NCBI GenBank assembly: GCA_965224085.1
Contig: CBDCYI010000005.1
Span: forward strand, 320,001-384,000
Direction: 5' to 3'
DNA: 64,000 nt
Origin: Candidatus Marinacidobacterales bacterium
Lineage (GTDB): Bacteria > Acidobacteriota > Vicinamibacteria > Marinacidobacterales > SMYC01
How positions within the stretch are numbered: the stretch's first letter is position 1; every line of letters starts with the position of its first letter. Both the position numbers and the translations under genes were made by a program. Shown here piece after piece: positions 3,538 through 21,836 of this stretch. The notes under the pieces are model-generated. The model had not been told where the DNA came from. It saw nothing but the letters and a program-made list of their open reading frames with translations, and searched no databases.

Positions 3538-3754
3538 CCTCCTCAACGTCCGAAAGCTCACACAGAATCGGTAGTAGAGCCAGACGGCGTGGCTGATGAT
3601 CTCGGGCGCAAATCGATATCCGTGGTAGCTCGGCGTGTCACTTTTCATCGGCCTAGTTTGCCAGACACGGCCTGAACTTGACAGCAATGGCACCGCCCGC
3701 GTGGGCGGAGGTCATCGGGGAGTGACCGAAATCGTTCGTTCACTCGAAAGTACC
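3538..3754 (-). mobile_element. IS6-family left-end remnant with 5' transposase stub; IR interrupted by a mini-IS110
   Basis: ATG 3648 gives MKSDTPSYHGYRFAPEIISHAVWLYYRFCVSFR(DVEE after a 1-nt shift), an IS6 N-terminus. IR halves aacttgac-ag (3675-3684) and tacc (3751-3754) rejoin to GGTACTGTCAAGTT on the minus strand. Confidence 0.85.
3683..3750 (+). mobile_element. Miniature non-autonomous IS110 derivative (64 bp between AG cores)
   Basis: Starts CAATGGCACCGCCCGCGTGGGCGGAGGTCATCGGGGAGTGACC, versus CAATGGCATCGCCCGGGCGGGCGAAGGTAATCGGAGACTGACC at the left end of the full IS110. Ends CACTCGAAAG, versus CAGTCGAAAG. AG at 3683-84 and 3749-50. Confidence 0.85.
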
Positions 3755-7360: not shown

Positions 7361-7637
7361 ATGAGACGTCTTTTATTGATTCTCGCACGGATCGTTTTCC
7401 CGGTCATGGCAACGGCGCAGACGCGTCCCATGACCTACGAGGACATCCTCGGTGTCAAGCGCCCCGCCGACCCGCAAAATCTCCCCCGACGGATCCCGCA
7501 TGGCCTTCGTGGTGAGTGAGCGGGACCAGAAGGAGGACGTCTACAACGAGGACCTGTAGGTGGTCGCCGCTCCGGAAGGGAATCTGGTGAGGCTGACCTA
7601 TGCGCAGAAGAGAGATCACTATCCGAGGTGGAGCCCG
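7361..7637 (+). pseudogene. 5' stub of an S9 peptidase
   Basis: GGAGG RBS; MRRLLLILARIVFPVMATAQTRPMTYEDIL...DPQ, frameshift in AAAA 7476-79, ISPDGSRMAFVV, in-frame TAG 7557-59, RLTY...PRWSP, then truncated. Confidence 0.8.
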
Positions 7638-7827
7638 GTGGGAGACACTCCTCAACCGCCTTGCCCTGTTTGCTCGAGTTCTGCTACGCTCACCCGGACT
7701 CAATCGGAGTGCACCGTCCCATCCCAGTGGGGAAATTTCGTGCGGACCGGGGCCGGACACGTTTGAATTTTCCTAATCCTAGTTTCGCCAGAAGGACACT
7801 AGCAAGCCTCCGCGTCGAACCGGCGAT

Positions 7828-10800
7828 GCAAGGCTCACCAAGCCTGCTTATCTCTGTAAACAAACGTCTGGAGGAAGGCATGAGAGGTGCAAGAGTATTT
7901 TTCTGGCGCTTGAACCTGGCTCTAGTGGTGACGGTCGGCCTGCTATGCAGCCCGAACCGGGCTCAGGCACAGCTCGTTGATGAAACTATTCTCGACAACC
8001 TTTTGTTGCGCTCCATCGGCCCCGCCGTCATGGGCGGACGCATCCATGACCTGGCCGTGGTGGAAGATCGTCCCTGGATCTTCTACATCGGTTCGGCTTC
8101 GGGAGGACTTTGGAAGACCACCAACAACGGAACCACCTGGGATCCAGTCTTTGACGATCAGGGGACTTCCTCGATCGGCGACCTCGCTCTCGCGCCTTCC
8201 GATCCCGAGATTGTCTGGGTGGGTACTGGAGAGCCCAATAACCGGCAAAGCTCGAGTTTCGGCGACGGGGTCTATAAGTCGACGGATGGCGGGAAGACCT
8301 GGAAGCACGTCGGCCTGCGCGACACCCATCACGTCGGACGCATCGTGATCCATCCCCAGGATCCCGACACCGTTTACGTCGCCGCTCTGGGACACCTGTG
8401 GGGACCCAACGAGGAGCGGGGCCTTTTCAAGACGACTGACGGGGGAAACACCTGGGAAAAGATCTTATATATCGATGAAGACACCGGAGTCGTCAACGTA
8501 GCCATGGACCCGGTGAATCCCCGGATTCTCTACGCCGCCGCGTACCAGCGACGGAGGACACCCTGGGGATTCAGTGGAGGGGGGCCGGGAAGCGGCCTCT
8601 ACAAGAGCTCCGACGGCGGGAAGACATGGAAGAAGTTGACCGAGGGCATTCCTGATGGCCCGACAGGCAGAATCGGTATCGATGTCTATCGCAGCGATCC
8701 CCGAATCCTCTATGCGCTGATAGAAAACCGTGAGGGAGGGGTTTTCCGATCGGAGGACCGGGGCGAAAGCTGGAAGAGGGTCAATGAGCTCAACCCCAGG
8801 CCCATGTACTACAGCCAGATATGGATTGATCCGAGCGACTCCCGGCACGTTTACGTGCTGGGCGGGCCCTTTTATGTTTCCGACGACGGCGGGAGGACGT
8901 TCGAGCAAAACACTGCCATGACGCCCACGTTCGATGTGGGAGTGCACGGCGACCACCATGTGCTGTGGATCGACCCCGCCAACGGCAAGCATCTTATCCT
9001 GGGGAGTGACGGCGGTCTCTACTTCTCCTGGGACAGGAGCCGCACCTGGGACAAGGTAAACAATTTGCCCATAGCCCAGTTCTACGCAGTGGGCGTCGAC
9101 ATGCAGAAGCCTTACTTCATCTACGGCGGTGCTCAAGACACTCACTCCTGGGGAGGGCCGAGTGCTACCCGGCACCACATTGGAATCATTAACTCCGACT
9201 GGGTTCAGATTGGCCCTGGCGACGGCATGTACCAGCAGGTAGACCCCGCCGATCCTAATATCATCTACACCGAGTCACAGGGAGGAGACATCGTTCGCCT
9301 CAACCATAAGACCGGGGATCGGAAAGACATCAAACCGCACCCCGGGGACGGCGAGTCGGAGTATCGGTTTCACTGGACTTCCCCCATCCTCATTTCCCCT
9401 CATGACCCGAAGACCGTCTATCTGGGCGGAAATCGGCTCTTCATCTCGAAGGACCGGGGAGAAACTTGGACGGCCACGGAGGATTTAACCCGGGCAGAGG
9501 AACGAGACAAGCTTCCCATCATGGGGGTAGTTCCCGACGAGACCACGCTCTCGCGGCATGACGGGGTGGCGGCCTGGGGTACCATCACCACCGTGGCCGA
9601 GTCTCCGCTGACTCCCGGCTTACTTTACGTGGGCACTGATGATGGCATTGTCCATGTGTCGCGGGATGGGGGTCGAACCTGGACTAGCCTGCAGGATAGG
9701 TTCGCCGGCGTGAATGAAGAAAGAGCTACGGTGAGCCGCGTCGTAGCCTCGCATGCCGAGCCGGGTAGAGGCTACGTCACATTCGACCGTCACCAGCTGG
9801 ATGACTTCTCCCCTTATGTCTTTACCACCGACGACTACGGGAACACCTGGAAGTCCATTGCCGGAAATCTGCCTCGGGTAGGTTGGGTTAATGTTCTCGC
9901 CGAGCATCCTCGAAACCCCAATCTTCTCTTCGTCGGTACGGAGACGGGGCTCTTCGTATCGCTGGATCGGGGCAACCGGTGGATTCGGCTTACAGGTAAC
10001 TTCCCGACCGTCCCGGTAGATGATCTCGTGATTCATCCCCGGGACAACGACCTCGTGGTGGGCACTCACGGCCGTTCCATCTACATCCTGGACGACCTCG
10101 CGCCGCTCGAACAGCTGAGTGAAGAGGTGCTGGCTTCGGAGGTCCACTTGTTTGACATCCGCCCAGCCATGGAGTTCGTGCTCGTCAAGCATGAAAGCTA
10201 CGGGGCCCAGCGGCAGTTCATCGGGGCAAACCCGCCTTTCGGCGCAGTCATCTCTTACTACCTGAAGTCGGAACCAGCGGGAGACGTCGAGCTTTCCATT
10301 GTCGACAGGAGCGGAAAGGCCCTTCGTGAGATCTCCGGGACAAAGCACTCGGGGGTAAATCGGGTGAGCTGGGACCTACGCCTTGCTGCTCCTGAAGGCG
10401 TTGACCAGGCGGTTGGCCCCCTTGTCCCCCCGGGACGCTACACGGTTCGGCTTAAGTTAGGTAAAAAGGAGCTGGCCAAACCGCTCGAGGTGGAGGCTGA
10501 CCCACTCTTTCCGGTCCCGGAGGAAGAGCAGGTTGCGCGCTACGAATTCCTCGTCACCGTGAACGGCTTACGCCAGACGATCCAGGAGGCCATCGATTCG
10601 ACAGAGGCAATTTCAGAACAGGTCCAAAGCCTTCTCGAGGGCACGCAGGGAGATCCTGAGGCACCGGAGGCTGTGATTTCGGCGGCTCGAACCATTGCCG
10701 AGGAATCGGAAAAGATCCGGCGCGCACTGGCGGGCGATGGTGTAGCACCGTTCTTCGCTGGACAGAGCCTGCGCTCGCGAGCAAACCGGCTCTTCACAAA

Positions 10801-11096
10801 CCTCGATGGTCGCGTCTTCTTCACTCCCTTCGGAAACGCTGTCCGTTACCCTCAGGGCACGCTGAGTGGGCCGACGCGCGTTCAGCGGGAGCGGCTGGCG
10901 TCGCTCACCCGGCAGCTGGACGAGCAGCTGGAGTTGCTGAACCGGCTTAGCCAAACCGCGGTTTCGGATCTAAACCGCCAGATGAACGAGGCGAACCTGT
11001 CCCATATCAAGGTGGGTGCACCGGTGCGCAGGCCGCGTTAGGTTAGGCCATAGCTGCTCCGCAACGTCGCCGAAACCTTCGTGTACTTCCGCTGAC
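7828..11096 (+). repeat. Direct-repeat copy 1 of a ~3.3-kb segment (copy 2 at 18587-21899)
   Basis: Both copies begin GCAAGGCTCACCAAGCCTG and end GTGTACTTCCGCTGAC, with long identical tracts between. Confidence 0.95.
7880..11041 (+). CDS. Secreted VPS10/BNR-repeat beta-propeller protein (glycosyl hydrolase-like), copy A
   Basis: Signal peptide, RSIGPAVMGGR, many SxDGGxTW Asp-boxes, helical C-terminus. Start placed at the ATG after GGAGGAAGGC rather than the ORF-track start. Confidence 0.9.
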   Translation: MRGARVFFWRLNLALVVTVGLLCSPNRAQAQLVDETILDNLLLRSIGPAVMGGRIHDLAVVEDRPWIFYIGSASGGLWKTTNNGTTWDPVFDDQGTSSIGDLALAPSDPEIVWVGTGEPNNRQSSSFGDGVYKSTDGGKTWKHVGLRDTHHVGRIVIHPQDPDTVYVAALGHLWGPNEERGLFKTTDGGNTWEKILYIDEDTGVVNVAMDPVNPRILYAAAYQRRRTPWGFSGGGPGSGLYKSSDGGKTWKKLTEGIPDGPTGRIGIDVYRSDPRILYALIENREGGVFRSEDRGESWKRVNELNPRPMYYSQIWIDPSDSRHVYVLGGPFYVSDDGGRTFEQNTAMTPTFDVGVHGDHHVLWIDPANGKHLILGSDGGLYFSWDRSRTWDKVNNLPIAQFYAVGVDMQKPYFIYGGAQDTHSWGGPSATRHHIGIINSDWVQIGPGDGMYQQVDPADPNIIYTESQGGDIVRLNHKTGDRKDIKPHPGDGESEYRFHWTSPILISPHDPKTVYLGGNRLFISKDRGETWTATEDLTRAEERDKLPIMGVVPDETTLSRHDGVAAWGTITTVAESPLTPGLLYVGTDDGIVHVSRDGGRTWTSLQDRFAGVNEERATVSRVVASHAEPGRGYVTFDRHQLDDFSPYVFTTDDYGNTWKSIAGNLPRVGWVNVLAEHPRNPNLLFVGTETGLFVSLDRGNRWIRLTGNFPTVPVDDLVIHPRDNDLVVGTHGRSIYILDDLAPLEQLSEEVLASEVHLFDIRPAMEFVLVKHESYGAQRQFIGANPPFGAVISYYLKSEPAGDVELSIVDRSGKALREISGTKHSGVNRVSWDLRLAAPEGVDQAVGPLVPPGRYTVRLKLGKKELAKPLEVEADPLFPVPEEEQVARYEFLVTVNGLRQTIQEAIDSTEAISEQVQSLLEGTQGDPEAPEAVISAARTIAEESEKIRRALAGDGVAPFFAGQSLRSRANRLFTNLDGRVFFTPFGNAVRYPQGTLSGPTRVQRERLASLTRQLDEQLELLNRLSQTAVSDLNRQMNEANLSHIKVGAPVRRPR

Positions 11097-11133
11097 GGTA
11101 CTTTCGACTGACACTCCCGGCCGAAGGCATTTT

Positions 11134-12522
11134 TCATGATATGGATTGATCGGGAACGAGGCTGAAGCCGAGTCGGGTAGCTTTGCGTCGGAGATTACTC
11201 AGGAGGCGTTGCTGGTATTGCCTTTCATAGGCGTCCTGACCGAGCTCAATGAACTCCTCTCCAGTCGCAAGCATGCGGAAGTAGATGGTCGCTATTTTAC
11301 GGGCGGTAGCTGTGATGGCCTTTGGAGCACCTCGTCGCGATCGGATTCGTCGATAGAAAGCGCCGAGCGCGGTTTGGGTATTGCGGACAGCGCACGCGGC
11401 GAGGCGAAAGAGTTTTGCAGCACGACTGGAGCTCATTGGGGTTGCCCGGCGAAAGATTCGACCAGCGGACTCCTTATTATTCGGTGCGAGAGCTAGCCAT
11501 GAGGTGAAGTGCTTGTCACTTTTCCACGGGCTCATGTCGCAACCGGTTTCTCCTACGAGCTGCAGAACGGCATAGCTACCTAAGCCGGGAACCCTGGTTA
11601 GGTCCACCCCCGTGAGTCCCAATAGAGACTCAGCGAGCGGAAAGCGCGGCCCGTTGCCGCTACGCGCTCGCCGTGTCCGTGGTTTCGGCTTAGGCCGAGC
11701 GTCCTGAGGCCGGGTCTCCAATTTGGACAGGCATCTCTCGATCCGCTTGTCACAGTCTTCCATTTTCTCTTGATAGAAATCGTACAACTCCACCGACTGT
11801 TGAAGAGCGAAAACATGCTCGCTCCGATAGTTACCTTCTAAGGCTTTCGCGATCGTGGCCTCATCGTTGTGGCAACGTTCATGCCTCAGTTTTGCTAGGT
11901 CACGAGGATCTCGCTCTCCTCTCAAGATCGCTCGGATGATCGCAAGGCCGGTGACTCCGGTCACGTCGCGCAGGACGTGTTGTAGCTGGAGCCCCATTTG
12001 GTTGAGCGCTTTGTGCATATGCTGAATGTGGCGAGCCGCTGACTCCACCAGCGAGCTTCGTTGGCGGGTGTATGCCCTTAGCTCGCAAATCGCCGATTCC
12101 GGCCGAAAGGTTTTTGGGAGTAGCCCGAATGTATGCAGCTGTTGCAGCCACTCCGCATCCGACACGTCTGACTTGCGCCCAGATACGTTTTTCACTTTGC
12201 GAGCATCGACCAGATAGACTTCAAATCCCTCGTCTTCCAACAACTCGTACAGTGAAATCCAATAAACTCCGGTCGACTCCATCGCCACCGTGCACACGCC
12301 GCACGCCTTCAGCCAATTGGCCAGCTCTCGCAGCGAGCATACAAAGCTCTGAAACGTGCGGACATGTTCGCCCTCAGGAGTGCGCCCCTTCGGGACTGCC
12401 GCCACGATTGACTCCGCTCCAATATCAATCCCTGCAGCATCTAGATTTACCGTGTCGAGCTCGTGCTCCAATTTTTTCCGTCTTGCTTGACGACTGCTTT
12501 TTGTCCTGACGCGACGTGCCAT
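11134..12522 (-). CDS. IS110-family DEDD recombinase/transposase
   Basis: AAGIDIG, VAMESTGVYW, GRKSDVSDAEWL, WLALAPNNKESAGR, KAITATARK. ATG 12522 follows AAAGGAG. Confidence 0.95.
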   Translation of the reverse strand: MARRVRTKSSRQARRKKLEHELDTVNLDAAGIDIGAESIVAAVPKGRTPEGEHVRTFQSFVCSLRELANWLKACGVCTVAMESTGVYWISLYELLEDEGFEVYLVDARKVKNVSGRKSDVSDAEWLQQLHTFGLLPKTFRPESAICELRAYTRQRSSLVESAARHIQHMHKALNQMGLQLQHVLRDVTGVTGLAIIRAILRGERDPRDLAKLRHERCHNDEATIAKALEGNYRSEHVFALQQSVELYDFYQEKMEDCDKRIERCLSKLETRPQDARPKPKPRTRRARSGNGPRFPLAESLLGLTGVDLTRVPGLGSYAVLQLVGETGCDMSPWKSDKHFTSWLALAPNNKESAGRIFRRATPMSSSRAAKLFRLAACAVRNTQTALGAFYRRIRSRRGAPKAITATARKIATIYFRMLATGEEFIELGQDAYERQYQQRLLSNLRRKATRLGFSLVPDQSIS

Positions 12523-12549
12523 TTCTCGCTCCTTTCGGCGCAACCAGGA

Positions 12550-12700
12550 GAGAGGGGCGATTCAAAACATTCTTTCGAACGGGGTCATGCCTCGCGACAT
12601 GCCACCACGGATACTCCCGCTAACCCTCCAGACCTTGCTGTCAAACGGGCACTGAGCACCATCGTACCTTCGGCCTTGACTCCCGGCTGCACTCGATCGG
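12550..12700 (-). ncRNA. Putative IS110 bridge RNA (boundaries approximate)
   Basis: Non-coding region upstream of the recombinase. On the minus strand it carries GGTAC (12664-68) and TTGACAG (12638-44), matching the target halves, and TCGAAAG (12572-78), matching the element end. Confidence 0.7.
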
Positions 12701-13082
12701 AGTCTACTTCCTCCCACAGATCTCAAAGGGTCAGTCTCCGATTACCTTCGCCCGCCCGGGCGATGCCATTGCTGTCAAGTTGAGCTGGTGACTGACATGA
12801 GCATGAATAGCGTCGACCGATGATCGTCCGGCGCGACCTCCAGTAAGTCAATGGCGCGACAGGTTCTCGTCAATGGCGCGACAGGTCCGGGTCTAGTCTG
12901 CGAGCCACTCGCCGGAAGATTGTTTCCGCTTTGGCAGATGCGGACTTGGCGAACCTGGCAAAGCGTAGAGGACGCTGGGAGAACGACTCGCAACGAGCGG
13001 AGAATGTCCTCAGCTTGAAGGACGAATTGAGTGGCAACGACCTCCTCCAGGGCAAGTTGTACGAGGTGACTGCCACCGGGGG

Positions 13083-13573
13083 CATGGACTCCCCACGCCG
13101 GATCAAGAGAAAACGTTCTTCGTAATAGTCATCCGCGATTCGCTTTTTTTGTGGGCCACCGGGAGGGGTCGTAAAGGGTTCCTTGTCGAAGCATCGCAAT
13201 GGCGATGGGGAGAATGCGGTCCATGACGCCTCTGAGAGCTCTGGCATGGCTGTGGCCTCTGTCACGAAGCCGGTCGTAGTGTTCTTTGAAGTGGGGGTCG
13301 TGCAAAACGGCAGTGCGTGCCCAATGGTGGAGAGCATTATTGAGGGGCAAAGAGCGAGCTCTCCTTCATTTCCGCCAGCGCATGTGATGTTTCATCGGCC
13401 CCTGTACTGGCGCTCGAAGCGCAACTCCCCACTGGATGTCCATCACAAAAGAATTGCCGGCACGCATGTCCATTCCTGGCGCTAGGAGCGCAGGGCGACG
13501 TATGGCGTTGCCGGCAAGCTGCTGACGAAATCGAAAATAGTCCAAGCTCATCGTGATATTTGCTCTACCATGG
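13083..13573 (-). mobile_element. Internally deleted second IS110-family element (non-coding end plus transposase C-terminus)
   Basis: 13129-13365 encodes LNNALHHWARTAVLHDP...RGHSHARALRGVMDRILPIAIAMLRQGTLYDP directly after an AAGGAG RBS. CATGG direct repeats at 13083-87 and 13569-73 give tentative ends. Confidence 0.6.
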
Positions 13574-18073: not shown

Positions 18074-18638
18074 GGCACGTTCCTTTCGCCAGAGGGCATC
18101 CTGCAAAAGAAGGCCGTGGTTGACCTTGGCCAAGAGTATCCGTCGAAGGGGTTGGCATTCGCCCCTTCCGCCCTTGAACTTGACGTTAAGGCGGATGCAG
18201 ATGATGCGCCCGGCACGATGGAATAGGCGCGGCCTTACGCGCCGGAACGTAGCACGGCCAGTCCTTGAAATCAAAATTCGCAGGGAGTGTTAATAGGCAG
18301 ACCCTGATACTGGCGATGGCCCTACCGGACCGTCCGCAAAATCGGGGCAACGTCAGTTTGCGTTCATACCATGCACTGGGGTAGCGTGTGCGCCGCGTGA
18401 CCTTGACGGCCCGCCAGCGACCTCTGCACGCGGTTCCGCGGAAGTAGGATCTTCATCCCGGCACGAGGTTTGAGCGTGGCGGGCGTTCCCGATGAGTTCA
18501 TCATGGCTGCAGCACACGTGACTGAGAGTCAGGCAGAGACCAATCGGAGGACATGATGATGGTAAGGTCGAGAATCCAGTGGGTAAGCAAGGCTCACCAA
18601 GCCTGTTTATCTCTGTAAACAAACGTCTGGAGGAAGGC

Positions 18639-21600
18639 ATGAGTGGTGCAAGAGTATTTTTCTGCTGCTTGAACCTGGCTCTAGTGGTGGCGGTCGGCCT
18701 GCTATGCAGCCCGAACCGGGCTCAGGCACAGCTCGTTGATGAAACTATTCTCGACAACCTTTTGTTGCGCTCCATCGGCCCCGCCGTCATGGGCGGACGC
18801 ATCCATGACCTGGCCGTGGTGGAAGATCGTCCCTGGATCTTCTACATCGGTTCGGCTTCGGGAGGACTTTGGAAGACCACCAACAACGGAACCACCTGGG
18901 ATCCAGTCTTTGACGATCAGGGGACTTCCTCGATCGGCGACCTCGCTCTCGCGCCTTCCGATCCCGAGATTGTCTGGGTGGGTACTGGAGAGCCCAATAA
19001 CCGGCAAAGCTCGAGTTTCGGCGACGGGGTCTATAAGTCGACGGATGGCGGGAAGACCTGGAAGCACGTCGGCCTGCGCGACACCCATCACGTCGGACGC
19101 ATCGTGATCCATCCCCAGGATCCCGACACCGTTTACGTCGCCGCTCTGGGACACCTGTGGGGACCCAACGAGGAGCGGGGCCTTTTCAAGACGACTGACG
19201 GGGGAAACACCTGGGAAAAGATCTTATATATCGATGAAGACACCGGAGTCGTCAACGTAGCCATGGACCCGGTGAATCCCCGGATTCTCTACGCCGCCGC
19301 GTACCAGCGACGGAGGACACCCTGGGGATTCAGTGGAGGGGGGCCGGGAAGCGGCCTCTACAAGAGCTCCGACGGCGGGAAGACATGGAAGAAGTTGACC
19401 GAGGGCATTCCTGATGGCCCGACAGGCAGAATCGGTATCGATGTCTATCGCAGCGATCCCCGAATCCTCTATGCGCTGATAGAAAACCGTGAGGGAGGGG
19501 TTTTCCGATCGGAGGACCGGGGCGAAAGCTGGAAGAGGGTCAATGAGCTCAACCCCAGGCCCATGTACTACAGCCAGATATGGATTGATCCGAGCGACTC
19601 CCGGCACGTTTACGTGCTGGGCGGGCCCTTTTATGTTTCCGACGACGACGGGACGACGTTCGAGCAAAACACTGCCATGACGCCCACGTACGGTGTGGGA
19701 GTGCACGGCGACCACCATGTGCTGTGGATCGACCCCGCCAACGCCGAGCATCTTATCCTGGGGGGTGACGGCGGTCTCTACTTCTCCTGGGACAGGAGCC
19801 GCACCTGGGACAAGGTAAACAATTTGCCCATAGCCCAGTTCTACGCAGTGGGCGTCGACATGCAGAAGCCTTACTTCATCTACGGCGGCGCTCAAGATAC
19901 TCACTCCTGGGGAGGGCCGAGTGCTACCCGGCACCACATTGGAATCATTAACTCCGACTGGGTTCAAATTGGCTGTTGCGACGGCATGTACCAGCGGGTA
20001 GACCCCACCGATCCTAATATCATCTACACCGAGTCACAGGGAGGAGACATCGTTCGCCTCAACCGTAAGACCGGGGATCGGAAAGATATCAAACCGCACC
20101 CCGGGGACGGCGAGTCGGAGTATCGGTTTCACTGGACTTCCCCCATCCTCATTTCCCCTCATGACCCGAAGACCGTCTATCTGGGCGGAAATCGGCTCTT
20201 CATCTCGAAGGACCGGGGAGAAACTTGGACGGCCACGGAGGATTTAACCCGGGCAGAGGAACGAGACAAGCTTCCCATCATGGGGGTAGTTCCCGACGAG
20301 ACCACGCTCTCGCGGCATGACGGGGTGGCGGCCTGGGGTACCATCACCACTGTGGCCGAGTCTCCGCTGACTCCCGGCTTACTTTACGTGGGCACTGATG
20401 ATGGCATTGTCCATGTGTCGCGGGATGGGGGTCGAACCTGGACTAGCCTGCAGGATAGGTTCGCCGGCGTGAATGAAGAAAGAGCTACGGTGAGCCGCGT
20501 CGTAGCCTCGCATGCCGAGCCGGGTAGAGGCTACGTCACATTCGACCGTCACCAGCTGGATGACTTCTCCCCTTATGTCTTTACCACCGACAACTACGGG
20601 AACACCTGGAAGTCCATTGCCGGAAATCTGCCTCGGGTAGGTTGGGTTAATGTTCTCGCCGAGCATCCTCGAAACCCCAATCTTCTCTTCGTCGGTACGG
20701 AGACGGGGCTCTTCGTATCGCTGGATCGGGGCAACCGGTGGATTCGGCTTACAGGTAACTTCCCGACCGTCCCGGTAGATGATCTCGTGATTCATCCCCG
20801 GGACAACGACCTCGTGGTGGGCACTCACGGCCGTTCCATCTACATCCTGGACGACCTCGCGCCGCTCGAACAGCTGAGTGAAGAGGTGCTGGCTTCGGAG
20901 GTCCACTTGTTTGACATCCGCCCCGCCATGGAGTTCGTGCTCTGGAAGCATGAAAGCTACGGGGGCCAGCAGCAGTTCATCGGGGCCAACCCGCCTTTCG
21001 GCGCAATCATCTCTTACTACCTGAAGTCGGAACCAGCGGGAGACATCGAGCTTTCCATTGTCGACAGGAGCGGAAAGGCCCTTCGTGAGATCTCCGGGAC
21101 AAAGCATTCGGGGGTAAATCGGGTGAGCTGGGACCTACGCCTTGCTGGCCCGGAACGGGCATTCTGGTTGACGTCGCCTGCTCCTGAAGGCGTTGAACAG
21201 GCGGGTGGCCCCCTTGTCCCCCCGGGACGCTACACGGTTCGGCTTAAGTTAGGTGAAAAGGAGCTGGCCAAACCGCTCGAGGTGGAGGCTGACCCACTCT
21301 TTCCGGTCCCGGAAGAAGAGCAAGTTGCGCGCTACGAATTCCTCGTCACCGTGAACGGCTTACGCCAGACGATCCAGGAGGCCATCGATTCGACAGAGGC
21401 AATTTCAAAACAGGTCCAAAGCCTTCTCGAGGGCACGGAGGGCAACCCTGAGGCACCGGAGGCTGTGATTTCAGCGGCTCGAACCATTGCCGAGGAATCG
21501 GAAAAGATCCGGCGCGCACTTGCGGGCCCGCGGGGTGATGGTACAGGAGCGTTCTTCGACAGACAGAGCCTGCGCTCGCGAGCAAGTCGGCTCTTCACAA

Positions 21601-21836
21601 ACCTTGATGGTCGCGTCTTCACTCCCTTCGGGCGAAACGCTGTCCGTCAGGGTACGCTGAGTGGGCCGACGCTCGTTCAGCGGGAGCGGCTGGCGTCGCT
21701 CACCCGGCAGCTGGACGAGCAGCTGGAGTCCCTGAACCGGCTTAGCCAAACCACGGTTTCGGATCTAGACCGCCAGATGAACGAGGCAAACCTGCCCCAT
21801 ATCAAGGTGGGTGCACCGGTGCGCAGGCCGCGTTAG
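18639..21836 (+). CDS. Secreted VPS10/BNR beta-propeller protein, copy B
   Basis: Near-identical to copy A with clustered differences; same RBS context. Confidence 0.9.
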   Translation: MSGARVFFCCLNLALVVAVGLLCSPNRAQAQLVDETILDNLLLRSIGPAVMGGRIHDLAVVEDRPWIFYIGSASGGLWKTTNNGTTWDPVFDDQGTSSIGDLALAPSDPEIVWVGTGEPNNRQSSSFGDGVYKSTDGGKTWKHVGLRDTHHVGRIVIHPQDPDTVYVAALGHLWGPNEERGLFKTTDGGNTWEKILYIDEDTGVVNVAMDPVNPRILYAAAYQRRRTPWGFSGGGPGSGLYKSSDGGKTWKKLTEGIPDGPTGRIGIDVYRSDPRILYALIENREGGVFRSEDRGESWKRVNELNPRPMYYSQIWIDPSDSRHVYVLGGPFYVSDDDGTTFEQNTAMTPTYGVGVHGDHHVLWIDPANAEHLILGGDGGLYFSWDRSRTWDKVNNLPIAQFYAVGVDMQKPYFIYGGAQDTHSWGGPSATRHHIGIINSDWVQIGCCDGMYQRVDPTDPNIIYTESQGGDIVRLNRKTGDRKDIKPHPGDGESEYRFHWTSPILISPHDPKTVYLGGNRLFISKDRGETWTATEDLTRAEERDKLPIMGVVPDETTLSRHDGVAAWGTITTVAESPLTPGLLYVGTDDGIVHVSRDGGRTWTSLQDRFAGVNEERATVSRVVASHAEPGRGYVTFDRHQLDDFSPYVFTTDNYGNTWKSIAGNLPRVGWVNVLAEHPRNPNLLFVGTETGLFVSLDRGNRWIRLTGNFPTVPVDDLVIHPRDNDLVVGTHGRSIYILDDLAPLEQLSEEVLASEVHLFDIRPAMEFVLWKHESYGGQQQFIGANPPFGAIISYYLKSEPAGDIELSIVDRSGKALREISGTKHSGVNRVSWDLRLAGPERAFWLTSPAPEGVEQAGGPLVPPGRYTVRLKLGEKELAKPLEVEADPLFPVPEEEQVARYEFLVTVNGLRQTIQEAIDSTEAISKQVQSLLEGTEGNPEAPEAVISAARTIAEESEKIRRALAGPRGDGTGAFFDRQSLRSRASRLFTNLDGRVFTPFGRNAVRQGTLSGPTLVQRERLASLTRQLDEQLESLNRLSQTTVSDLDRQMNEANLPHIKVGAPVRRPR

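What the first reader, a model, noticed from the sequence alone, without database searches (positions are those of the whole stretch)
11097..12781. IS110 bridge recombinase that targets IS6 terminal inverted repeats
Seen: the element is bounded by GGTA-CT|TTCGA (11097-11107) and CATTG|CT-GTCAAGTT (12767-12781). Removing it and one CT gives GGTACTGTCAAGTT. The same 14-mer is rebuilt at 3675-3754, directly upstream of an IS6 transposase start, where it is also interrupted at the same CT. The copy-B paralog shows host sequence ending exactly at 11096. Established: IS6 IRs are ~14 bp starting GG; IS110 elements insert at a duplicated 2-nt core; IS4321/IS5075 target Tn21-type IRs. Inference: this IS110 is programmed against IS6 ends, a transposon-on-transposon parasite I do not know to be described.
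Basis: partly seen in the sequence, partly recalled or inferred. Interest (0 to 1): 0.9.

Follow-up and report, generated by a model that had tools for sequence, protein, structure and literature searches.

The report
IS110 element that targets IS6 ends
A 1.67-kb RNA-guided (IS110-type) insertion sequence and a 64-bp miniature relative sit at one exact position inside the terminal repeats of IS6-type insertion sequences, a transposon-inside-transposon habit already known in kind but which I did not find reported for IS6.

Summary
Window 11103-12771 is an intact IS110-family element: 462-aa DEDD recombinase on the minus strand, 249-nt upstream end, 31-nt downstream end. It is flanked by a duplicated CT inside GGTA^CT^GTCAAGTT.

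In the window's genome all 30 upstream-end junctions abut CT-GTCAA-N-TT. 33 of 34 downstream-end pattern matches abut GGTA-CT; the 34th is a chance match. Uninterrupted GGTACTGTCAA (10 sites) is the tip of 806-bp IS6-family elements. IS6 ends whose positions 5-6 read TT instead of CT (45 sites) are never occupied.

Two thirds of the insertions are a 64-bp miniature element, including window 3685-3748. An identical recombinase sits in IS6 ends in a genome of another family.

The upstream end carries two conserved RNA modules. Their variable 3' strands read the reverse complement of CT+GTCAAA and of CT+TTCGA. The same rule predicts the element boundaries in 16 and 8 relatives with other targets. 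The 5' strands are unresolved.

The kind is not new: IS1383 targets IS1384 repeats, and IS4321/IS5075 target Tn21 repeats. The IS6 target, the miniature element and a possible escape variant (TT core) appear new. There is no experimental evidence.

The parts
11097..11100 (+). GGTA: outermost 4 bp of an IS6-type terminal repeat, cut off from the rest of the repeat by the insertion
   Evidence: GGTA is the tip of intact IS6 ends. Homology with the paralogous host gene copy ends at 11096.
11101..11102 (+). Left copy of the duplicated core dinucleotide CT
11103..11133 (-). Downstream non-coding end (RE, 31 bp). On the minus strand it ends ...GTCAGTCGAA before the core.
   Evidence: The last 5 nt plus core are repeated as UCGAAAG in the upstream end.
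11134..12522 (-). IS110-family DEDD recombinase gene, 462 aa counted from the ATG at 12522
   Evidence: ORF. PF01548 E 7e-25, PF02371 E 2.3e-08. NF033542 257.9 bits, cut-off 140; 7 full copies in the genome at 100% as printed.
12523..12771 (-). Upstream non-coding end (LE, 249 nt) with the two bridge-RNA-like modules
12664..12668 (-). Module 1, 5' strand: GGUAC, matching positions 1-5 of the IS6 repeat (GGTAC). This assignment is a candidate only.
   Evidence: The motif is palindromic in context, and the corresponding strands of relatives are not explained.
12635..12645 (-). Module 1, 3' strand: UUUGAC-AG-CAA. It is the reverse complement of GTCAAA, of the CT core and of the last 3 nt (TTG) of the LE-side donor arm. 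This is the target guide plus a handshake-like extension.
   Evidence: The rule was tested in relatives (16 of 31 relatives, 9 of them exact).
12572..12578 (-). Module 2, 3' strand: UCGAA-AG, the reverse complement of CT+TTCGA. This is the donor guide for the RE-side arm.
   Evidence: The rule was tested in relatives (8 of 11 relatives with the module).
12772..12773 (+). Right copy of the core dinucleotide CT
12774..12797 (+). Remainder of the IS6-type left repeat (GTCAAGTTGAGCTGGTGACTGACA). It is a remnant: the IS6 body is missing here.
   Evidence: (compare the intact IS6 left ends).
3685..3748 (-). 64-bp miniature element. About 45 bp resemble the LE start and about 9 bp the RE end. It is non-autonomous.
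   Evidence: 85-87% to the LE end; 19 complete copies, all 64 bp.
3683..3684 (-). Core copy (AG on the plus strand) at the LE side of the miniature element
3749..3754 (-). Second core copy (3749-3750) and the IS6 repeat tip (3751-3754, TACC on the plus strand)
3544..3682 (-). Remnant of an IS6-type element: the inner part of the left repeat and the first 35 codons of the transposase (ATG at 3649)
   Evidence: tblastn at C5:323648-323544, 83% over 35 aa.

Best explanation
Window 11103-12771 is an active or recently active IS110-family insertion sequence of the subgroup with a long upstream end. Its site-specific target is the tip of IS6-family terminal inverted repeats.

It recombines at a CT dinucleotide that is positions 5-6 of the repeat (GGTA^CT^GTCAA). 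The outer 4 bp are left on one side and the rest of the IS6 on the other, and the CT ends up at both junctions.

Specificity most likely comes from a bridge RNA transcribed from the upstream end. Module 1 carries UUUGAC-AG, which pairs with CT-GTCAAA (repeat positions 5-12), and on its other strand GGUAC, which fits repeat positions 1-5. Module 2 carries UCGAA-AG, which pairs with the element's own CT-TTCGA arm.

Donor and target must share the core. IS6 ends that read TT at positions 5-6 are therefore refractory. That explains why in the commonest IS6 only the left end is hit.

A 64-bp miniature element keeps the same donor arms (TCGAA / CAATGGCA) and uses the same site, presumably served in trans by the recombinase and its RNA.

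Shown: the anatomy, the family membership, the site specificity across two genomes, and the guide rule across relatives. Inferred: transcription of the RNA, RNA-guided chemistry, trans-mobilisation of the miniature element, and the reason TT ends are spared.
For: Family.

Copies: 7 full-length copies with 7 different left flanks, all GGTA-CT ... CT-GTCAA(A/G/C)TT.

Census of the genome: 30 of 30 LE-side junctions are followed by CTGTCAA-N-TT (10 full-type, 20 mini-type). 33 of 34 RE-side pattern matches are preceded by GGTACT. The 30 junctions fall in 10 different 14-nt right-hand contexts, so one insertion copied by its carrier cannot account for them.

The empty site exists: 10 uninterrupted GGTACTGTCAA. 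The carrier is an 806-bp IS6 (PF13610; NF033587 at 209.3 bits against 125).

Core dependence: 45 GGTA-TT-GTCAA ends, 0 occupied. 235 CT-GTCAA(A/G/C) sites without GGTA, none occupied.

Second genome: G021, of another family, has 6 copies with 100% identical protein. The 4 inspected lie at (G/T)GTA-CT ... CT-GTCAA in IS6-type ends, two of them directly followed by an IS6 transposase start.

Guide rule for module 1. I examined 32 upstream ends, ours plus 31 relatives of 40-53% identity. 24 have the conserved module-1 frame. In 17 of those (ours plus 16 relatives) the 7 nt before the frame's AG-plus-2 are found again 120-155 nt upstream at the element boundary. 10 of the 17 are exact, with 9 different guide sequences. 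An exact 9-mer is expected by chance about 0.001 times per locus.

Guide rule for module 2: of 12 loci with the frame, 9 (ours plus 8) have the exact 7-mer 1426-1489 nt downstream at the other boundary.

Consensus fold of 13 upstream ends: 17 pairs, 9 of them with compensatory changes. The guides lie in the internal loops.

The layout rc(target arm)+rc(core)+2-3 nt of the other partner matches the RTG+handshake layout described for IS621 (PMC11208158, passages).
Against: No Rfam family matches the region.

Only the 3' strands of the two modules are explained. The 5' strand of module 2 shows no complement to the LE-side donor arm in ours or in relatives. The 5' strands of module 1 fit the other target arm in only about 2-3 of 8 relatives with known junctions.

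[quoted passage not shown] Here the long guides lie on the 3' side, so the donor site seems inverted relative to the gene. I could not check this against IS621 sequence.

No sigma-70-like promoter was found in the integrated copy. No circle junction is in the assembly: CATTGCTTTCGA has 1 hit, and it is unrelated.

The MFE fold of the upstream end alone is unremarkable (z = -1.86).

The miniature element occurs in genomes where no close full-length copy was found (G012 and G025 have none at E<=1e-30). Its spread therefore need not depend on this element everywhere.

Contigs from two RNA libraries cover 11097-11697 and 12398-12705, but DNA carry-over cannot be excluded.

Nothing here is experimental.
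Confidence: 0.85

Rival explanations
1. There is no ongoing targeting. One or a few ancient insertions into an IS6 end were multiplied passively, by transposition of the IS6 that carries them, by gene conversion between IS6 copies, or by horizontal transfer of IS6.
For: 17 of the 30 junctions lie in the same IS6 type, whose copies are 97-100% identical. After insertion the outer end still resembles the repeat: GGTACTTTCGA against GGTACTGTCAA, 9 of 11. The miniature element occurs in genomes without a close full-length element.
Against: There are 10 different right-hand contexts in this genome and further ones in 8 other genomes, always at the same dinucleotide. Homology on the outer side is only 6 bp, too short for conversion. 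The three sequence variants of the miniature element do not follow the tree of their IS6 carriers; the same variant sits in the main and in the 3%-diverged IS6 lineage. The 7 full copies are nearly identical, yet they lie in 6 different 14-nt contexts of IS6-type ends. Passive spread may add copies but cannot be the whole story.
Confidence: 0.07
2. The site is read by the recombinase protein alone, as in classical site-specific recombinases. The complementary segments in the upstream end are then recombinase binding sites or remnants of earlier targets.
For: The 5' strands of both modules are unexplained. No Rfam hit. No promoter found.
Against: The variable segment covaries with the flanking target in 9 different guide/target pairs while the frame around it stays constant. 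The same holds for the donor arm. NCBIfam names the family RNA-guided, and the mechanism is established for IS621 (PMC11208160).
Confidence: 0.05
3. The boundaries are wrong: GGTACT belongs to the IS110-type element, and the real target is only GTCAA... next to any sequence.
For: GGTACT is present at every left junction, as it would be if it were part of the element.
Against: Empty sites read GGTACTGTCAA, and the opposite IS6 end reads GGTATTGTCAA, so GGTA is the IS6 tip. 235 CT-GTCAA(A/G/C) sites without GGTA are all unoccupied.
Confidence: 0.02

Closest known systems
IS621 (IS110 family, bridge RNA; PMC11208160 and PMC11208158, passages read)
   Same: DEDD/RuvC-like domain plus Tnp domain recombinase. 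Long upstream and short downstream non-coding end. Duplicated CT core. Two RNA loops that read target and donor and include the core. A 2-3 nt extension complementary to the other partner (handshake).
   Different: No detectable sequence match to any solved chain, and relatives found are 40-53% identical at best. The protein is 462 aa against 326 aa. The long guides lie on the 3' strands of the loops, and in the frame where the core reads CT the gene is on the opposite strand. The 5' strands are unexplained. The target is an IS6 repeat, not a REP element.
[quoted passage not shown]
   Same: An IS110-superfamily element that inserts at one fixed position inside the terminal repeat of another transposon.
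   Different: A different subgroup, with the RNA downstream of the gene and subterminal repeats. The carrier is a Tn3-family transposon, not an IS6.
IS1383, whose specific target is the inverted repeats of IS1384 (Muller, Lauf and Herrmann 2001; only the title seen)
   Same: An IS110-family element whose target is the inverted repeats of another insertion sequence. This is the closest precedent for IS-in-IS parasitism.
   Different: A different carrier IS and host (Pseudomonas putida). I could not read the paper, so position, core and copy numbers cannot be compared.
MITEPpu9 / ssr9 module of ISPpu9 (PMC12288879, discussion passage read)
   Same: A small non-autonomous element bounded by the ends of an IS110-family element and thought to use its recombinase in trans.
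   Different: MITEPpu9 carries a small-RNA gene and targets REP sequences. The element here is only 64 bp, carries no recognisable guide module, outnumbers its parent two to one and sits in IS6 ends.

Membership tests
IS110 family (IS110 subgroup) | Recombinase with an N-terminal DEDD (RuvC-like) domain and a C-terminal Transposase_20 domain | tested here: met
   PF01548 residues 30-176, PF02371 residues 308-390. NF033542 equivalog, 257.9 bits against a cut-off of 140, profile positions 2-342 of 343.
IS110 family (IS110 subgroup) | No terminal inverted repeats; a short core duplicated at both junctions instead of a conventional target duplication | tested here: met
   the ends are TTCGAC... 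and ...CCATTG, and CT is at both junctions in 7 of 7 full copies.
IS110 family (IS110 subgroup) | Upstream non-coding end much longer than the downstream one | tested here: met
   249 nt against 31 nt. The criterion is as described in PMC11208160 section 12.
IS110 family (IS110 subgroup) | Bridge RNA with a target loop and a donor loop, each with two guide strands that include the core | tested here: inconclusive
   The 3' strands of both modules meet the rule, in ours and in relatives. The 5' strands do so only partly (GGUAC in ours). No Rfam family matches.
IS110 family (IS110 subgroup) | Circular intermediate with joined ends that drives RNA expression | not testable with these tools
   No joined-end sequence is in the assembly. 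Only contigs, not raw reads, were available.
IS6 family (the carrier/target) | Single DDE transposase of about 220-250 aa in an element of about 800 bp | tested here: met
   806 bp, 234 aa. PF13610. NF033587 at 209.3 bits against 125. Size ranges from PMC7986276.
IS6 family (the carrier/target) | Short terminal repeats with a GG tip and an internal cTGT motif | tested here: met
   GGTACTGTCAAATTGAG and GGTATTGTCAAGTTGACG. Motif as stated in PMC7986276 section 18. The right end has T where the family has a strongly conserved c.
IS6 family (the carrier/target) | 8-bp direct target repeats | tested here: not met
   0 of 23 copies with both flanks readable have matching 8-mers. The review notes that such repeats are lost after intramolecular replicative transposition, so this weakens membership only slightly.
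MITE (miniature inverted-repeat transposable element) | Short non-coding element bounded by the ends of a parent IS, in many copies | tested here: met
   64 bp. 19 complete copies and 20-22 junctions. The ends resemble those of the IS110-type element.
MITE (miniature inverted-repeat transposable element) | Terminal inverted repeats | tested here: not met
   Like its parent it has none. 'MITE-like' is therefore the accurate term.

The most novel reading that the evidence does not exclude
This is a three-level chain of parasites with a visible arms race. A 64-bp element lives off an IS110-type recombinase and its RNA, and that element lives in the most conserved bases of IS6 repeats. IS6 escapes by a single C-to-T change in the core dinucleotide (repeat position 5), which the IS6 transposase tolerates but the core-matching recombination does not.

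Support comes from the 16 genomes of the order that have such IS6 ends. The 9 that also carry IS110/miniature junctions (117 junctions) have 251 TT ends against 221 free CT ends. The 7 without junctions have 7 TT against 51 CT, and their IS6 copies read CT at both ends. IS6 copies with TT at both ends occur in the junction-bearing genomes.

The genomes are kin, and IS6 lineages may have travelled together with their parasites, so the association is not yet evidence of selection.
Probability: 0.3. Interest if true: 0.7.

Novelty: new member of a known kind. Interest (0 to 1): 0.5.

Why it matters
It gives a clean natural example of a bridge-RNA-type element aimed at another transposon's functional end, with a census that shows what the guide tolerates. 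A or G at repeat position 12 is tolerated, which fits U pairing with either. CT at the core is required and TT is not used.

IS6-family elements (the IS26 group) are major movers of resistance genes. A natural recombinase that has evolved to split IS6 repeat tips shows that these conserved bases are addressable.

The 64-bp derivative is very small for an element of a family thought to move through circles. A double-stranded circle of that size would be hard to form. A single-stranded circle, as a 2026 preprint reports for IS621 (abstract read), would not be.

If the TT core is an escape variant, this system would make conflict between transposons directly testable.

Tried and rejected
Rfam: no family matched at E<=1.

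PDB sequence search with the recombinase: no match at E<=0.01.

Promoter/terminator scan of 11000-12900: none found.

None of the 80 loci returned has the element next to the match. They are chance matches, the query was too short for that collection, and nothing can be concluded from them.

The 53 relatives from genome contigs: a motif look-up found no consistent TTGACAG or AGTACC at their boundaries. They have other targets, for example TGTCATCCTG-AG in several Acidobacteriaceae MAGs. They were useful only for the guide rule.

I tried to explain the 5' strands of both modules by complementarity to the other target or donor arm, in either sense, with G-U pairs and with shifted registers. This failed except for GGUAC in ours and CAAGC in L036.

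I tried to read a handshake extension after the donor guide. The 3 nt there (AAU) look like conserved frame (A-N-U in relatives), not a match to the target.

8-bp target duplications of IS6: none.

Tree of the 26 IS6 copies against their state: the states are interspersed, and resolution is too low to count events.

Sequencing runs: only assembled contigs were served. They show many different sequences before 11097 and another IS6-type context after 12781 in other samples, and partial cover in two RNA libraries. Parts without cover mean nothing. No skipping or joined form of the element was seen. The one internal joint (11515 to 11995, one contig, 21 letters on its shorter side) I take as noise.

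My script mislabelled all junctions as 'mini'.

ISfinder cannot be consulted here, and the supplementary tables of the bridge-RNA and seekRNA papers were not available. Either could already list an element with this target.

My statement that the IS6 target is not in print rests on searches and on passages of the papers named; it covers no more than that. G027 is unpublished.
Full report
THE OBSERVATION. Between the two CTs lie 1669 bp. They hold one long ORF on the minus strand (11134-12522, 462 aa from the ATG). Homology with the paralogous gene copy further right in the window stops exactly at 11096. At 3675-3754 the same 14-mer, on the other strand, is split at the same dinucleotide by 64 bp (3685-3748). 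An IS6-type transposase start follows (ATG at 3649, minus strand), but only 35 codons of it remain. The uninterrupted 14-mer is not in the window.

WHAT THE ELEMENT IS. The ORF has the two domains of IS110-family recombinases (PF01548, E 7e-25; PF02371, E 2.3e-08). It passes NCBI's equivalog model 'IS110 family RNA-guided transposase' (257.9 bits, cut-off 140). The upstream non-coding end is 249 nt and the downstream one 31 nt. That is the layout described for the IS110 subgroup (PMC11208160 section 12). There are no terminal inverted repeats.

COPIES IN THE GENOME. The window's genome holds 7 full copies that match all 1685 bases of the query at 100% as printed, plus truncated ones. The seven have seven different sequences to the left of GGTA and share CT-GTCAA(A/G/C)TT on the right.

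WHAT THE TARGET IS. Uninterrupted GGTACTGTCAA occurs 10 times in the genome, mostly 40 bp in front of an ORF. One such unit, C5:1438118-1438923, is 806 bp. It encodes a 234-aa protein and ends in the inverted sequence GGTATTGTCAAGTTGACG. The protein is an IS6-family transposase (PF13610; NF033587 209.3 bits, cut-off 125). The repeats have the GG tip and the cTGT motif that the IS6 review gives as the family signature (PMC7986276 section 18). The IS110-type element therefore splits the IS6 repeat between its 4th and 7th base, at the c and T of the conserved motif. 26 full-length copies of this IS6 exist. None of the 23 with both flanks readable has an 8-bp target duplication. The review attributes such loss to intramolecular replicative transposition.

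CENSUS OF JUNCTIONS. I searched the whole genome for the two ends of the element family, without constraining the flanks. All 30 LE-side ends are followed by CTGTCAA, then any base, then TT. 33 of 34 RE-side pattern matches are preceded by GGTACT. The 34th is a chance match of the degenerate pattern and is not the element. Ten of the LE-side junctions are of the full-length type and twenty are of a 64-bp type. The 30 junctions lie in 10 different 14-nt right-hand contexts: 8 among the full type and 4 among the miniature type, with two shared. These contexts are left ends of the common IS6 (17), ends of other IS6-type elements, right-end-like repeats of an IS6 relative, and short elements made of two IS6 ends.

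CENSUS OF EMPTY SITES. Unoccupied sites are as follows. GGTA-CT-GTCAA occurs 10 times. GGTA-TT-GTCAA occurs 45 times; these are all right ends of the common IS6 and three left ends. CT-GTCAA(A/G/C) without GGTA occurs 235 times. No TT end and no site without GGTA is occupied.

STATES OF THE COMMON IS6. Among the 26 copies, 12 left ends carry the miniature element and 3 carry the full element or a truncated one. 8 read GGTA-CT by position and 3 read GGTA-TT. Of the 8, six have the full GGTACTGTCAA, one reads GTAAA after the core and one reads TTCGA.

A SECOND GENOME. In a search of 40 related genomes, one genome of a different family (G021) has 6 copies with 100% identical protein. The 4 I inspected lie at (G/T)GTA-CT ... 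CT-GTCAA. Their right flanks are other IS6-type ends, and two are directly followed by an IS6 transposase start. Two genomes of the window's own genus hold truncated copies with the same left junction. Intact copies of this element were found only in G000 and G021 among those searched.

THE MINIATURE ELEMENT. It has 19 complete copies in this genome, all 64 bp between the cores. Its first ~45 bp on the LE side resemble the full element's LE start at 85-87%, including a terminal hairpin kept by compensating changes. Only its last ~9 bp resemble the RE. The bases next to the core are the same in both: TCGAA on one side and CAATGGCA on the other.

The left junction of either element occurs in 9 of 401 genomes sampled from the class, all in two families of one order. 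In the 23 loci I read, the miniature element again sits at the same dinucleotide in many different IS6-type ends. It is present in genomes where no close full-length relative was found. G012 and G025 have none at E<=1e-30; G010, G016 and G033 have only relatives of about 50% identity with other ends.

Its three sequence variants in this genome do not follow the tree of the IS6 copies that carry them. That argues for repeated insertion rather than copying with the carrier, though the tree has little resolution.

HOW THE SITE IS PROBABLY READ. Rfam has no model that matches. The upstream ends of relatives at 40-53% protein identity nevertheless share a frame. Twice in each upstream end there is an invariant CCG, about 9 variable nt, UGGUG(C/A), a hairpin, (C/U)CCG, 6 variable nt, AG, then 3 nt. 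A consensus fold of 13 such ends places the variable stretches in the two strands of internal loops. It gives 17 pairs, 9 of them with compensatory changes.

In our element the variable stretch of the first module's 3' strand is UUUGAC-AG-CAA (12645-12635). That is the reverse complement of GTCAAA, of the CT core, and of TTG, the last three bases of the LE-side arm. The second module's 3' strand is UCGAA-AG (12578-12572), the reverse complement of CT-TTCGA.

TESTING THE RULE ON RELATIVES. Of 32 upstream ends (ours and 31 relatives), 24 have the first frame. In 17 of these (ours and 16 relatives) the guide's last 7 nt plus the next 2 recur 120-155 nt upstream with at most one mismatch, which marks the element's boundary. 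Ten of the 17 are exact, with nine different guide sequences. An exact 9-mer in that 260-nt stretch is expected about 0.001 times per locus.

For families with several copies the boundary found this way is the one that copy comparison gives. For the second frame, 9 of 12 loci (ours and 8) have the exact 7-mer 1426-1489 nt downstream, after a conserved GT(T/C)A(G/C)T.

The order rc(arm)+rc(core)+2-3 nt of the other partner is what the structural paper describes for the right-target guide and its handshake bases in IS621 (PMC11208158).

WHAT DOES NOT FIT. The 5' strand of the first module reads GGUAC (12668-12664), which fits positions 1-5 of the IS6 repeat. Together with the 3' strand it covers GGTACTGTCAAA. 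But GGTACC is a palindrome, and the corresponding strands of relatives fit their other target arm in only about 2-3 of 8 cases. The 5' strand of the second module has no visible complement to the LE-side arm in any of them.

[quoted passage not shown] Here the long guides lie on the 3' side. In the frame where the core reads CT the recombinase gene is on the opposite strand. Either the donor site is inverted relative to the gene in this clade, or I misread the convention. I could not check this against IS621 sequence.

There is no sigma-70-like promoter in the integrated copy and no joined-end sequence in the assembly.

Contigs of two metatranscriptome runs cover 11097-11697 and 12398-12705, which includes the module region. 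DNA in such libraries cannot be excluded, and contigs do not show RNA ends. The same laying shows, in other samples, many different sequences in front of 11097 and a different IS6-type context behind 12781.

WHY ONLY SOME ENDS. Recombination of this family exchanges strands at the core, and the published work changed donor, target and guides together when it changed the core (PMC11208160 section 10). An IS6 end reading TT would therefore not recombine with a CT donor. That fits 0 of 45 occupied.

U at the outer guide position can pair with A or G. That fits insertions at GTCAAA (18), GTCAAG (11) and only one at GTCAAC.

Sites without GGTA are spared (0 of 235). This suggests that the outer four bases are read too. 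Selection against insertions outside transposons could give the same picture.

A POSSIBLE ARMS RACE (exploratory). 55 genomes of the order were searched for free IS6-type ends, and 16 have any. The 9 that also carry IS110-type or miniature junctions (117 junctions) have 221 free CT ends and 251 TT ends. The 7 without junctions have 51 CT and 7 TT.

In G029 and G031, which have no junctions, pairs about 800 bp apart read CT at both ends. In G021 and G012, which have junctions, many pairs read TT at both ends. If occupied sites are added to CT, the TT share is 43% against 12%.

The family consensus has c at this position, so TT looks derived. The genomes are kin, and IS6 lineages may have moved together with their passengers. 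This is a lead, not a result.

COMPARISON AND NOVELTY. The mechanism class is that of IS621. Insertion of an IS110-superfamily element into the terminal repeats of another transposon is known for IS4321/IS5075 in Tn21-type repeats. It is also known for IS1383 in the repeats of IS1384; I saw only the title.

A MITE-like derivative of an IS110-family element is registered as MITEPpu9 (PMC12288879).

In six literature searches and in the passages read I found no report of an IS110-type element aimed at IS6-family repeats. I also found no report of a derivative as small as 64 bp, or of a core polymorphism in the carrier's repeats. ISfinder and the papers' supplementary tables could not be consulted.

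I therefore file it as a new member of a known kind, with an interesting but unproven evolutionary reading.

Noticed in passing
G000:C4:1695373 (minus strand), outside the window: One IS6 left end reads GGTACT-TTCGA-ATTGAG, so the five bases after the core are those of the IS110-type element's RE-side arm instead of GTCAA. It could be a scar of imprecise loss of an insertion or a conversion product.
   Followed up: no
G000:C4:1577081 (minus strand), outside the window: An otherwise intact IS6 left end reads GGTACTGTAAAATT, with a change inside the stretch paired by the guide, and it is unoccupied.
   Followed up: no
L114 (G000:C4:495400-496500): A ~900-bp unit bounded by IS6-type ends (GGTATTGTCAAGTTGAGGG... 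and GGTTCTGTCAAGTTTTCC...) carries an IS200-like Y1 transposase gene split over two frames (PF01797, profile positions 9-64 and 62-121). It carries no IS6 transposase. Four ends of this type hold the miniature element.
   Followed up: partly
G000:C9:107157-107271 and many pairs about 105 bp apart in G012 and G010: There are short elements made of two IS6-type ends about 100-120 bp apart, which look like IS6-derived MITEs. Some of their ends are hit by the IS110-type or miniature element, for example C9:576861-576972.
   Followed up: no
window 7628-11041 and 18579-21836: Two paralogous ~1100-aa genes with BNR/sortilin-Vps10 repeats. They are 90% identical over the last 600 bp. The IS6/IS110 nest begins 55 bp after the stop of the first.
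   Followed up: partly
window 13078-13365 and beyond: Pieces of another repeated element lie just right of the IS6 remnant. It has 99-100% matches at about 8 places in the genome. The region is a nest of mobile-element fragments.
   Followed up: no
G000, e.g. C4:31553-32260 and C9:14218-14925: A second IS110-family element is present in at least 9 places. It is 36-37% identical, in open frames of 388-428 aa. Its target was not examined.
   Followed up: no
L041-L057 (Acidobacteriaceae MAG records): Relatives at 47-48% identity insert after TGTCAT(C/T)CTG-AG, which looks like a dispersed repeat of those genomes. Their guide reads AUCCUGAG or UUCUGAG.
   Followed up: partly
L034; G033:C1:722750-725693: Relatives occur as head-to-tail tandem pairs, the second copy starting right after the first.
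   Followed up: no
G000:C9:642674-644043 and 648263-649617: Two copies of the IS110-type element, both lacking the LE side, lie in inverted orientation about 4 kb apart. A genome of the same genus has the same truncated form.
   Followed up: no
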